NCBI RefSeq assembly: GCF_029227855.1
Contig: NZ_CP074356.1
Direction: 5' to 3' (one strand)
Length of the DNA stretch: 64,000 bases
DNA from: Escherichia coli
Lineage (GTDB): Bacteria; Pseudomonadota; Gammaproteobacteria; Enterobacterales; Enterobacteriaceae
Part shown: positions 49,404 through 50,050 of the stretch, piece by piece
How the letters are laid out: each line of letters begins with the position of its first letter
Position numbering within the stretch: the stretch's first letter is position 1
Notes under the pieces: model-generated
The model's input: only the letters and a program-made list of their open reading frames with translations
Database searches by the model: none
What the model was told of the DNA's origin: nothing
Position numbers and translations under genes: made by a program

Positions 49404-49592
49404 TCAGATAATTTCCGGTGATGTTTCCAGCGCATCCGCAATCAGTTTTTCGCCGCGCGGCCTGGAGCGGGTCAGCGCATTTGCCAGCGTGGAAGACGCC
49501 AGCCCGGCCCTGCGGGAAACCTCAGCCAGCGATGTTCCCTTTTTTCTCAGGCCCGCGATAATATCGGCGGGGTGCCAGTCGGGTTGCATCAT
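49404..49592 (-). CDS. Ner-like / Nlp-family small HTH DNA-binding protein
   Basis: 62-aa ORF MMQPDWHPADIIAGLRKKGTSLAEVSRRAGLASSTLANALTRSRPRGEKLIADALETSPEII; the DWHPADIIAGLRKKGTS...SSTLANAL core matches the Ner/Nlp family as recalled. Confidence 0.75.
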   Translation of the reverse strand: MMQPDWHPADIIAGLRKKGTSLAEVSRRAGLASSTLANALTRSRPRGEKLIADALETSPEII

Positions 49593-50050
49593 GCTGGCCT
49601 CCCGTCGATAACCTGTATGCCGTCAGCAGTACATATCCAGCGTGGGGCGTTCAGATTGGCGGCAAAATACCAGACCAGTTCGCACAGCAGCCCGGTCAGC
49701 GTGGTTTCGGTTTCCGGCAGCAGCACGTGGCCGTTCAGTATCTGCGTCAGCGCCAGGCAGTAATCGCAGAGTGATCCTGCATCAGGCTCAAAACCGGGTG
49801 AAACATCGGGAAGATCATTCGTAATAAACCCGTCAATCAGATGTGGTGGGATCGGCTCGTTCAGCGTGGGCCGCAACAGTGCAAGACAGGTATTAAGCCT
49901 GCCACAGAGCGCCGTTTTCAGCGCCGGATCGCAGCACTCGATGAGCGTTGTGGCAACGCGATCGCAGTACTCCGCCAGATCGGTGAAATCGGTAGCGGCA
50001 CTAAAGGGAACAGCAAGTAAATTGCATTCAGAGGTGAGAGTAGTCGCCAT
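49589..50050 (-). CDS. Hypothetical protein, co-transcribed upstream partner of the Ner-like gene
   Basis: 153-aa ORF MATTLTSECNLLAVPFSAATDFTDLAEYCDRVATTLIECCDPALKTALCGRL...; its TGA overlaps the Ner-like ATG (ATGA); no family recognised. Confidence 0.5.
   Translation of the reverse strand: MATTLTSECNLLAVPFSAATDFTDLAEYCDRVATTLIECCDPALKTALCGRLNTCLALLRPTLNEPIPPHLIDGFITNDLPDVSPGFEPDAGSLCDYCLALTQILNGHVLLPETETTLTGLLCELVWYFAANLNAPRWICTADGIQVIDGRPA

What the first reader, a model, noticed from the sequence alone, without database searches (positions are those of the whole stretch)
49404..50050. Two-gene operon: unknown 153-aa protein translationally coupled to a Ner-like regulator, divergent from rhs
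The 153-aa ORF has no family I can recognise and overlaps the Ner-like gene by ATGA, implying co-expression. The pair is transcribed divergently from the rhs promoter region (50050-50571), where it could regulate the Rhs toxin module or island functions.
Basis: partly seen in the sequence, partly recalled or inferred. Interest (0 to 1): 0.45.

Follow-up and report, generated by a model that had tools for sequence, protein, structure and literature searches.

The report
P4-type RNA-controlled island operon remnant
The two genes are real and coupled, but they are the early operon of a small decaying P4-related genomic island, switched by a phage-type antisense RNA that fills most of the supposed rhs promoter region; they are not a dedicated Rhs regulator.

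Summary
ORF153 (49589-50050, minus strand) and a Ner-family gene (49404-49592, minus strand) overlap by ATGA, and ORF153 matches no Pfam, NCBIfam, PHROG or PADLOC family.

Positions 50055-50311 are the operon's own leader, homologous to the phage P4 immunity region. It holds a PLE-like promoter, isrK/seqA-like a1/b1 boxes, a C4/CI antisense RNA (Rfam RF01695, 62 bits) and a2/b2 boxes next to the ORF153 ribosome site.

Across 89 related loci:
- The two RNA loops and their four targets covary three ways.
- The ATGA coupling is kept in 42 of 45 Ner-linked loci.
- ORF153 is under purifying selection (dN/dS about 0.25).
- The cargo beside the leader changes from island to island (Rhs, T6SS, RM+DarTG, AbiE).

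Half the homologs are stand-alone C4-ORF153 cassettes without Ner.

The window copy lies in a 10.5-kb tRNA-Asn island that is decaying. The Shine-Dalgarno is lost, ner carries W63*, and both recombinases are frameshifted.

ORF153 is a soluble, acidic four-helix bundle of unknown biochemical function.

The parts
50283..50311 (-). PLE-like sigma-70 promoter of the operon: -35 TTGCTG (50311-50306), 17-nt spacer, -10 TATTGT (50288-50283)
   Evidence: Read. It aligns with the P4 PLE region and with the CTTGCn-N17-gTATCTT blocks of homologous leaders. The consensus scanner did not flag it. Function is inferred.
50214..50289 (-). isrK / seqA-like 5' leader: 5' hairpin GCGCCTG-CAAAAT-CAGGCGT (about 50276-50254), box a1 ATTAGCCTCC (50252-50243), box b1 CCTCACTGAC (50235-50226). 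The internal terminator hairpin seen in relatives is deleted here.
   Evidence: Rfam c4-a1b1 RF03163 scores 43.8 bits (GA 46.7) and isrK RF01394 scores 45.5 bits (GA 50). Both pass their gathering scores in homologous loci. Complementarity to the C4 loops is shown.
50104..50192 (-). C4 / P4-CI-type antisense RNA with loop b' GTCAGTGAGG (50149-50140) and loop a' AGGCTAA (50133-50127)
   Evidence: Rfam RF01695 scores 62.2 bits (GA 45), E 1.2e-10, full-length model. nhmmer finds the same element upstream of ORF153 in 75 of 89 loci.
50055..50100 (-). Downstream target (seqC-like): a2 ATTAGCCTC (50100-50092), b2 CTCACTG (50068-50062), then a degraded Shine-Dalgarno TAGACGG (50061-50055; relatives have GGAGG or GGAGA)
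   Evidence: In relatives b2 ends 9-11 nt before the ATG and abuts GGAGG.
49589..50050 (-). ORF153: soluble acidic protein (pI 4.1, net charge -13), four-helix bundle plus C-terminal beta-hairpin, uncharacterised family
   Evidence: (pLDDT 89, pTM 0.82).
49404..49592 (-). Ner-family HTH gene, truncated allele (W63*). The former C-terminal codons continue in frame to about 49338.
49256..49300 (-). 17-bp G+C-rich perfect hairpin about 105 nt after the ner stop, with no U-run. Possible operon end or RNA stabiliser.
   Evidence: z-score -5.4. Function not established.
48543..48670 (-). EFASI RNA motif, about 55 nt upstream of the small recombinase gene
   Evidence: Rfam RF02957 scores 100.8 bits. 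It holds the same position before the Integrase_1 gene in L005, L008, L014, L032, L046 and L101.
47870..48487 (-). Frameshifted small tyrosine-recombinase-like gene (Phage_int_SAM_2 + Integrase_1; intact homologues are 294 aa)
45271..46532 (+). Frameshifted P4-type integrase next to tRNA-Asn
45034..45113 (+). tRNA-Asn, with its 3' end serving as the attL repeat (45089-45113)
55642..55666 (+). attR-like repeat of the tRNA-Asn 3' end. It sets the island at about 10.55 kb.
   Evidence: family D2.
50572..54174 (+). rhs ORF: cargo of this island, not part of the conserved backbone

Best explanation
ORF153 and the Ner-like gene are the protein-coding part of a P4-type early ('left') operon. The operon belongs to the backbone of a small island inserted at tRNA-Asn (45089-55666).

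Proposed mechanism:
- Transcription starts at a PLE-like promoter (50283-50311, minus strand).
- It runs through an isrK/seqA-like leader carrying boxes a1 and b1.
- It then passes a C4/CI-type antisense RNA (50104-50192) and a second pair of boxes, a2 and b2, placed against the ORF153 ribosome-binding site.
- As in P1, P7 and P4, the C4 RNA processed from this leader pairs through its two loops with a2/b2 (and with a1/b1).
- That pairing blocks ORF153 translation. Through the ATGA coupling and transcriptional polarity it also blocks ner expression, so the operon stays silent ('immune') unless the RNA is titrated or outrun.

What is shown: the anatomy, the homology to the P4 immunity region, and the three-way covariation. 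What is inferred from P1/P4/Gifsy-1 knowledge: the RNA-mediated repression itself.

Inferred protein roles:
- The Ner-like protein is a Cro/Ner-type DNA-binding regulator of island or A+T-rich promoters, and possibly of excision.
- ORF153 is a non-enzymatic, strongly acidic four-helix-bundle protein that acts by binding another protein, in the manner of an anti-repressor or of a host-factor modulator such as Kil or Icd. This is about 30% likely.
- ORF153 translation also delivers ribosomes to ner.

The rhs gene is interchangeable cargo. In this window the module is probably no longer fully functional. The ORF153 Shine-Dalgarno is lost, the near-invariant R140 is now C, ner carries W63*, and both recombinases are frameshifted.
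For: RNA leader in the window:
- Rfam C4 scores 62.2 bits against a gathering score of 45.
- c4-a1b1 and isrK lie just upstream at near-gathering scores.
- Direct reading gives a1 and a2 = UUAGCCU pairing with a' AGGCUAA, and b1 and b2 = CUCACUG pairing with b' CAGUGAG.

Covariation across loci:
- In 65 of 73 parsable loci all four boxes hold at least 7 nt of exact complement to the two loops.
- These cover 8 a-types, 27 b-loop variants and 39 combinations.
- b2 ends 9-11 nt before the ATG and abuts GGAGG.

Homology to P4:
- The leader aligns along its length with the P4 PLE-seqA-CI-seqC-kil region. Even the first ten codons match (MATTLTPSHP).
- The equivalences isrK = seqA and C4 = CI RNA are stated in PMC3632133.
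- Eight of eight further loci tested with Rfam have C4 plus isrK or a1b1 above gathering scores immediately upstream of the homologue.

ORF153 and coupling:
- ATGA coupling is kept in 42 of 45 loci.
- Median dN/dS is 0.23 and 0.27.
- A divergent homologue sits in the early operon of a bona fide P4-like satellite, between an Icd-like gene and epsilon and the primase.

Backbone and cargo:
- The conserved order is tRNA-Phe or tRNA-Asn, P4-type int, Integrase_1, EFASI, ner, ORF153, C4 leader.
- Cargo is variable.

Protein properties:
- AF2 model with pLDDT 89; pI 4.1; no transmembrane segment.
- Ner fold: 1NEQ and 7F9H.

Decay in the window:
-.
- Between the window and its 96%-identical relative, ORF153 has 7 nonsynonymous and 0 synonymous differences.
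Against: - There are no expression data for this locus. Promoter use, RNA processing and repression are inferred by homology.
- The promoter was not picked up by the simple consensus scan.
- 14 of 89 loci lack a detectable C4 upstream. Several are clean C4 deletions with an intact ORF. Two divergent homologues (L092, L094) have no C4 at gathering score. The RNA control is therefore not universal for the family.
- In the closest relative (L100) the a' loop (AUGCCAA) no longer matches a2 (UUAGCCU). Pairing can evidently be broken in this lineage.
- The linked ORF153-Ner AF2 model (pTM 0.60) gives no usable interface information.
- Half of the homologues work without Ner. Any model in which ORF153 exists only to serve Ner is incomplete.
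- The exact 62-aa truncated Ner allele is seen on at least 1000 contigs. It may retain some activity.
Confidence: 0.75

Rival explanations
1. One reading: the pair is a dedicated, divergently transcribed regulator of the rhs toxin promoter or of island functions.
For: - In the window, rhs starts 521 bp from ORF153 on the opposite strand.
- The 236 bp next to rhs is A+T-rich at 68%.
- Ner-family EnrR binds A+T-rich acquired DNA, antagonises H-NS and controls T3SS/T6SS genes (PMC9023278).
- Related E. coli islands carry T6SS or Rhs cargo.
Against: - Most of the intergenic region is the pair's own RNA leader.
- The same backbone carries unrelated cargo in other genera. No cargo ORF is shared by more than 4 of 35 loci.
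- The orientation of the neighbouring gene is not conserved.
- The Ner allele here is truncated.
Confidence: 0.1
2. The C4-ORF153 unit is a toxin-antitoxin or abortive-infection-like cassette. The antisense RNA is the antidote. ORF153 is a harmful effector released when the RNA is lost or titrated by an incoming element carrying matching a1/b1 decoys.
For: - 44 of 88 related loci are monocistronic C4-ORF153 cassettes ending in terminator-like hairpins, mostly away from tRNAs and integrases.
- Several genomes hold 2-4 copies whose loop specificities differ.
- The first genes behind C4/CI in P1 (icd) and P4 (kil) are harmful when expressed (established knowledge; kil position shown).
- The cassettes lie beside defence or TA cargo.
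Against: - Six natural variants have lost C4 but keep the promoter, Shine-Dalgarno and an intact ORF (L022, L065, L071, L076, L080, L089). This argues against strong toxicity.
- ORF153 is soluble, with no membrane segment or nuclease- or toxin-like fold.
- PADLOC gives no hit.
Confidence: 0.15
3. The pair controls island excision. Ner acts as a Cox/Apl-like recombination directionality factor for the P4-type Int or the small Integrase_1 recombinase, and ORF153 acts as its cofactor.
For: - Ner is linked to the two recombinase genes. Most Ner-positive loci also have Integrase_1 and a P4-type int next to tRNA-Phe or tRNA-Asn.
- These islands have no AlpA/Vis-type excisionase.
- Small HTH proteins that double as repressor and excisionase are established for P2 Cox and 186 Apl.
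Against: - No binding sites have been identified.
- ORF153 occurs without any recombinase in half of the loci.
- Known Ner-family members are transcription regulators or nucleoid-associated proteins, not directionality factors.
Confidence: 0.15
4. ORF153 is only a leader or coupling reading frame. Its translation matters (anti-polarity, ribosome delivery) but its protein product does not.
For: - It sits where P1 icd, P4 kil and Gifsy-1 'orf45' sit, and translation of those ORFs gates the downstream genes (PMC4825925).
- The ATGA coupling is conserved.
Against: - dN/dS is about 0.25 over 153 codons.
- The fold is predicted with confidence.
- Monocistronic cassettes have nothing downstream to couple to.
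Confidence: 0.05

Closest known systems
Satellite phage P4 immunity region and left operon (PLE - seqA - CI RNA - seqC - kil/eta - epsilon - orf151 - cnr - alpha)
   Same: - Homologous DNA from the promoter to the first ten codons.
- Rfam isrK and C4 hits in the same order in P4 itself.
- Two-loop antisense RNA with upstream and downstream targets, the downstream one at the first ribosome site.
- P4-type integrase at a tRNA.
   Different: - The first gene is a 153-aa acidic helical protein instead of the 65-aa Kil. hhalign finds no homology to P4 ORF151 or to the 137-aa 'cI' ORF.
- It is followed by a Ner-like gene, not by epsilon, cnr and alpha.
- The island has no primase, sid, delta or psu.
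- The leader lacks the roughly 85-nt P4 insert and, in this window, the seqA terminator.
P1/P7 immI operon (c4 RNA - icd - ant)
   Same: - Same Rfam families (C4, c4-a1b1).
- Same logic: antisense RNA cut from the leader, a1/b1 and a2/b2 targets, and a first ORF translationally coupled to the next gene.
   Different: - The downstream genes are unrelated. There is no Icd or Ant homologue here.
- The setting is a chromosomal island, not a plasmid prophage.
Gifsy-1 isrK - orf45 - anrP locus (PMC4825925)
   Same: - An isrK-type 5' RNA.
- A conserved RNA-like 'orf45' region.
- An AUGA overlap to the effector gene.
- A translationally silent long transcript.
   Different: - The effector there is the anti-repressor AnrP. 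Here it is ORF153 followed by Ner.
- The window's isrK match is below the gathering score because its terminator is deleted.
Mu Ner / E. coli SfsB (Nlp) / Edwardsiella EnrR
   Same: - Pfam HTH_35.
- About 63% identity to Mu Ner over 59 residues, and a clear match to EnrR.
   Different: - The allele is truncated before the conserved IWPSRY tail.
- It is below the SfsB equivalog cut-off.
- Its genomic setting, behind a C4-controlled ORF, has not been described for those proteins.
P4-like satellites as defined by SatelliteFinder (int, alpA, psu, delta, sid, epsilon, alpha)
   Same: - P4-type int at a tRNA, a CI/C4 leader, and defence or competition cargo.
- A divergent ORF153 homologue lies inside a true P4-like satellite (L092).
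   Different: Only int is present (as a pseudogene) out of the seven hallmark genes. The island is a P4-related, non-replicative element, not a P4-like satellite.

Membership tests
C4 / P4-CI antisense RNA (Rfam RF01695, clan CL00128) | Covariance-model score at or above the curated gathering score | tested here: met
   62.2 bits against a gathering score of 45, full-length match at 50104-50192 (-).
C4 / P4-CI antisense RNA (Rfam RF01695, clan CL00128) | Two exposed segments (a', b') complementary to an upstream a1/b1 pair and a downstream a2/b2 pair on the same transcript | tested here: met
   Window: 7-nt a matches and 7-10-nt b matches. All four boxes are present in 65 of 73 loci, with covariation over 39 loop combinations.
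C4 / P4-CI antisense RNA (Rfam RF01695, clan CL00128) | Downstream target overlaps or abuts the ribosome-binding site of the first ORF | tested here: inconclusive
   Met in relatives, where b2 runs into GGAGG 9-11 nt before the ATG. In the window b2 is present but the Shine-Dalgarno is mutated to TAGACGG.
C4 / P4-CI antisense RNA (Rfam RF01695, clan CL00128) | RNA is processed from the leader and represses downstream expression | not testable with these tools
   Needs Northern or RNA-seq data and reporter fusions.
isrK / seqA-type leader RNA (Rfam RF01394, RF03163) | Score at or above the gathering score, including the terminator hairpin | tested here: not met
   Window: isrK 45.5 against 50 and c4-a1b1 43.8 against 46.7. 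The terminator hairpin is deleted. Homologous loci pass.
Ner family (Pfam HTH_35, PF13693) | Significant match to the domain model | tested here: met
   E 1.6e-23. PDB 1NEQ E 6e-18.
Ner family (Pfam HTH_35, PF13693) | Complete domain including the C-terminal IWPSRY segment | tested here: not met
   The match covers model positions 1-58 of 75. A TGG-to-TGA nonsense change at codon 63 removes the tail.
SfsB/Nlp (NCBIfam NF007670 equivalog) | Score at or above the curated cut-off (150 bits) | tested here: not met
   90.3 bits for the window allele and 115 bits for an intact 84-aa homologue.
P4-like satellite | Hallmark genes alpha primase, epsilon, sid, delta, psu and alpA in addition to int | tested here: not met
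   The 10.55-kb island holds only int*, Integrase_1*, ner*, ORF153, rhs and a TPR gene.
Toxin-antitoxin module (RNA antitoxin) | The protein is toxic when the RNA is absent | not testable with these tools
   There is indirect evidence against. Six C4-less variants keep an intact ORF and promoter.
Translationally coupled operon | Stop/start overlap conserved among homologues | tested here: met
   ATGA overlap in 42 of 45 Ner-linked loci.

The most novel reading that the evidence does not exclude
ORF153 defines a new class of effector gated by specificity-coded C4 RNAs. The stand-alone C4-ORF153 cassettes occur at 2-4 copies per genome, each with its own a/b 'address'. They could act as RNA-keyed sensors. 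When an incoming P4-, P1- or Gifsy-type element expresses matching isrK/seqA decoy RNA, or degrades the C4 RNA, the acidic ORF153 protein is made. It would then neutralise a DNA-binding protein of the invader or the host, such as a repressor, a Ner- or H-NS-like protein, or a satellite factor. In the integrase-bearing islands the same switch would also release Ner to activate the island.
Probability: 0.12. Interest if true: 0.75.

Novelty: new variant of a known kind. Interest (0 to 1): 0.42.

Why it matters
It re-assigns a supposed rhs promoter region to a well-understood class of riboregulator, the P4 CI / P1 c4 immunity RNA.

It also shows that this switch drives a different payload in hundreds of enterobacterial genomes: a conserved, unannotated acidic protein, often coupled to a Ner-type regulator.

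The backbone is P4-type int, a small second recombinase, the EFASI RNA, Ner, ORF153 and the C4 leader. It marks a family of small tRNA-Phe and tRNA-Asn islands that ferry defence systems, T6SS clusters and Rhs toxins. Recognising it would help to delimit such islands and to predict when their genes switch on.

The stand-alone cassettes, with their many RNA specificities, offer a tractable system for studying antisense-RNA specificity and cross-immunity among satellites and islands.

For this particular window the practical message is modest. The copy is a decaying remnant.

Tried and rejected

2. **Homology of ORF153 to P4 ORF151 or to the P4 '137-aa cI/eta' ORF.** Rejected by hhalign (probability at most 1.3%). 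Only the first ten residues match Kil.

3. **An eta-like long isoform.** This would be an 'Ash' peptide fused in frame to ORF153, as some annotations show. It is rejected. The frame is open across C4 in 24 loci, against 25 and 18 loci for the two other frames. The 'ash family protein' extensions are translations of the RNA gene.

4. **ORF153-Ner complex by AF2 with a Gly-Ser linker.** pTM was 0.60 and no interface read-out was available, so this is inconclusive.

5. **A conserved partner gene in the Ner-less loci.** None was found.

6. **Phage or plasmid residence.** There is essentially none: one 1.5-kb fragment record and a few plasmid or mis-typed records.

7. **Literature.** No paper was found on the ORF153 family or on the int/Integrase_1/Ner backbone. 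Source names are all 'hypothetical protein'.

8. **First scan of genome contigs.** The attempt with the diverse alignment failed for lack of a conserved peptide. It was repeated with a closer alignment.
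Full report
**1. Observation**

The window is E. coli. It is 100% identical over 49000-50600 to porcine strains such as K_EC180.

One search lists the two minus-strand ORFs exactly where the finding places them. ORF153 is at 49589-50050 and a 62-aa ORF is at 49404-49592. They share the four bases ATGA.

The small ORF is a Ner-family protein:
- Pfam HTH_35, E 1.6e-23.
- About 63% identity to Mu Ner 1NEQ, and a clear match to EnrR 7F9H.
- It is not an SfsB equivalog, scoring 90 bits against a cut-off of 150.

ORF153 has no significant match in Pfam, NCBIfam, PHROGs, PADLOC or PDB sequences.

**2. ORF153 is a real, conserved gene**

- It has 196 homologues at 90% clustering. 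They span Escherichia, Salmonella, Klebsiella, Enterobacter, Citrobacter, Dickeya, Pectobacterium, Brenneria, Hafnia and others.
- It has 166 clusters at 50% identity.
- In 89 loci, most of them from one genome per species, 87 carry an intact ORF of 140-160 codons. Median dN/dS is 0.23 for Ner-linked loci and 0.27 for Ner-less loci.
- AlphaFold2 gives a confident model (pLDDT 89, pTM 0.82) of a four-helix bundle with a C-terminal beta-hairpin.
- The protein is very acidic (pI 4.1, net charge -13; family median pI 4.5) and has no membrane segment.

**3. The 'rhs promoter region' is mostly this operon's own RNA leader**

An Rfam scan of 45000-51500 found these features on the minus strand:

| Feature | Coordinates | Score (gathering score) |
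|---|---|---|
| C4 antisense RNA | 50104-50192 | 62.2 bits (45) |
| c4-a1b1 targets | 50237-50289 | 43.8 bits (46.7) |
| isrK | 50214-50276 | 45.5 bits (50) |
| EFASI RNA | 48543-48670 | 100.8 bits |

Reading the sequence gives this order on the minus strand:
- -35 TTGCTG, a 17-nt spacer, -10 TATTGT.
- A 5' hairpin.
- a1 AUUAGCCUCC and b1 CCUCACUGAC.
- The C4 RNA, with loops b' GUCAGUGAGG and a' AGGCUAA.
- a2 AUUAGCCUC and b2 CUCACUG.
- ATG.

The whole stretch aligns with the phage P4 immunity region (PLE, seqA, CI RNA, seqC, start of kil). This includes the first ten codons, MATTLTPSHP in P4 Kil. Rfam finds isrK and C4 in the same order in P4 itself. The equivalences isrK = seqA and C4 = CI are stated in PMC3632133.

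**4. Comparative support for the RNA switch**

- nhmmer finds the C4 element within 520 nt upstream of the ORF153 homologue in 75 of 89 loci.
- In 65 of 73 parsable loci both loops have exact complements of at least 7 nt at all four boxes. These cover 8 a-types, 27 b-loop variants and 39 combinations.
- b2 ends 9-11 nt before the ATG and runs into the GGAGG Shine-Dalgarno.
- This three-way covariation is the signature of the P1/P7 c4 and P4 CI systems.
- Eight of eight loci scanned with Rfam have C4 plus isrK or a1b1 above gathering scores at that position. Three of five further loci also have C4.
- Copies that share a genome differ in at least one loop.
- The 'ash family protein' N-terminal extensions in some annotations are translations of the C4 gene. 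The frame is not preferentially open, with 24 loci against 25 and 18 for the other two frames.

**5. Genomic context**

Two settings account for the related loci.

*Type A* (44 loci plus the window):
- ORF153 is followed by ner, with the ATGA overlap in 42 of 45 cases.
- An EFASI RNA comes next, about 100 nt before a 294-aa small tyrosine-recombinase-like gene (Phage_int_SAM_2 plus Integrase_1).
- A convergent P4-type integrase follows, next to tRNA-Phe or tRNA-Asn.

*Type B* (44 loci):
- These are monocistronic C4-ORF153 cassettes that end in terminator-like hairpins.
- They have no Ner, no integrase and no other conserved neighbour.
- They mostly lie away from tRNAs, and several genomes hold more than one.

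A more distant homologue (37% identity) sits in the early operon of a genuine P4-like satellite. Its order is int, AlpA, capsid-related gene, Icd-like gene, ORF149, a 159-aa ORF, epsilon 'Derepression', primase, Ogr/Delta. Another lies at the edge of a P22-like prophage behind a C4 RNA. The family is virtually absent from sequenced phages and plasmids.

**6. Cargo is interchangeable**

On the far side of the leader the islands carry different genes:
- Type I RM plus DarTG in Dickeya.
- AbiE, TacAT and DUF4747 in Klebsiella.
- Rhs and DUF2169 in E. coli.
- tssG, tssF and vgrG in E. coli ESDR8.

Among 35 species-level type A loci, no upstream ORF of at least 120 aa is shared by more than four. 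The neighbour is sometimes co-directional. The pair therefore belongs to the island backbone and not to rhs.

**7. The window copy is decaying**

The tRNA-Asn 3' end (45089-45113) is repeated at 55642-55666. This delimits a 10.55-kb island. Within it:
- The P4-type int and the Integrase_1 gene are both frameshifted.
- The leader has lost the isrK terminator hairpin.
- The Shine-Dalgarno GGAG(A) of the closest relative has become GTAG.
- ner carries TGG to TGA at codon 63, and the conserved tail is still readable in frame.
- ORF153 carries R140C at a nearly invariant position.
- ORF153 differs from its 96%-identical relative by 7 nonsynonymous and 0 synonymous changes. Under the family's dN/dS such a split is unlikely, at roughly 0.4% by my estimate. 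This suggests relaxed constraint.

In that relative, ner is independently frameshifted, and the a' loop no longer matches a2. Even so, both window alleles are common. Each is seen on at least 1000 contigs, and the module is present in 194 of 5426 complete E. coli genomes.

**8. Mechanism**

*Shown:* the anatomy, the homology to P4, the covariation, the coupling and the purifying selection.

*Inferred from established P1, P4 and Gifsy-1 biology* (for example PMC4825925): the C4-type RNA is cut from the leader and pairs with a2/b2. This occludes the ribosome site of the first ORF. Through coupling and Rho-dependent polarity the rest of the operon is silenced. The a1/b1-bearing 5' RNA can act as a competitor.

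*Ner.* By family, Ner is a Cro-like repressor or a nucleoid-associated anti-H-NS protein. A Cox/Apl-like role in excision is possible, because Ner travels with the recombinases.

*ORF153.* It occupies the slot of Kil, Icd, Ant or AnrP. Being acidic, helical and non-enzymatic in appearance, it most likely acts by binding another protein. That would make it anti-repressor-like or a host-factor modulator. I give this only about 30%. Six natural C4-less variants with an intact promoter and ORF argue against a strongly toxic product.

**9. Verdict**

The finding is a genuine, conserved two-gene unit, but in a known regulatory framework. It is a new variant of the P4/P1 antisense-RNA immunity operon, carrying an unannotated protein family and a Ner partner, on the backbone of small cargo-carrying tRNA islands.

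The proposed link to rhs is not supported beyond a generic possibility. The copy in this window is a remnant.

Noticed in passing
window 48543-48670 (-): An EFASI RNA motif (Rfam RF02957, 100.8 bits) lies about 55 nt upstream of the frameshifted small recombinase gene. The same EFASI-then-Integrase_1 arrangement recurs in L005, L008, L014, L032, L046 and L101. It is absent from L002, which lacks Integrase_1. This suggests a 5' regulatory element or sRNA tied to that recombinase.
   Followed up: partly
window 46734-46864 and 46962-47092 (+): Two A+T-rich direct repeats of 131 nt (73-82% identical, 228 nt start to start). Each contains an inverted repeat (CCTTCTGTGATT...AATCACAGAAGA). They lie in the 1.3-kb gene-free gap between the convergent int and Integrase_1 pseudogenes. 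In layout they resemble iteron, crr or arm-site arrays.
   Followed up: partly
window 49256-49300 (-): A perfect 17-bp G+C-rich hairpin (centroid -45 kcal/mol, z -5.4) lies about 105 nt after the ner stop, with no following U-run. The RefSeq 'hypothetical protein' at 48755-48913 (+) in this spacer looks spurious.
   Followed up: partly
L022, L065, L071, L076, L080, L089 (leaders upstream of the ORF153 homologue): These are natural deletion variants in which the C4 RNA has been removed, apparently by recombination between the a1/a2 or b1/b2 repeats. The promoter, one target set, the Shine-Dalgarno and an intact ORF remain. They would be constitutive, or regulated only in trans.
   Followed up: partly
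L013/L015/L078; L033/L038/L065/L080; L061/L068/L085; L070/L081; L032/L054: Single genomes carry two to four C4-ORF153 modules whose a'/b' loop combinations differ. This is what one would expect if cross-immunity between co-resident copies is avoided.
   Followed up: partly
L100 6770-6960 (-), E. coli strain 98233: This is a recombinant leader. a1 and the C4 a' loop are of the UUGGCAU/AUGCCAA type, but a2 is of the UUAGCCU type as in the window. The break point therefore lies between C4 and a2, and the a-pairing at the ribosome site is lost.
   Followed up: no
L096 (phage P4) 8168-8584 (-): The RefSeq CDS 'cI gene product (137 aa), transcriptional repressor' of P4 overlaps the CI RNA gene and the kil/eta frame. 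Pfam Phage_ASH and PGAP 'ash family protein' calls appear to be translations of C4/CI RNA genes.
   Followed up: partly
window 40801-45109: Three tRNA-Asn genes lie within 4.3 kb around nac, cbl and yeeO. Only the third one (45034-45109) carries an island in this strain. Related E. coli strains carry the same backbone at the asn tRNA next to mtfA (L100, L101).
   Followed up: no
window 50572-54174 (+): The rhs ORF in the window is 1200 aa by the ORF listing. The RefSeq Rhs CDS of the otherwise identical K_EC180 locus is 1330 aa. The C-terminal toxin region, or a stop codon, may therefore differ downstream of the compared stretch.
   Followed up: no
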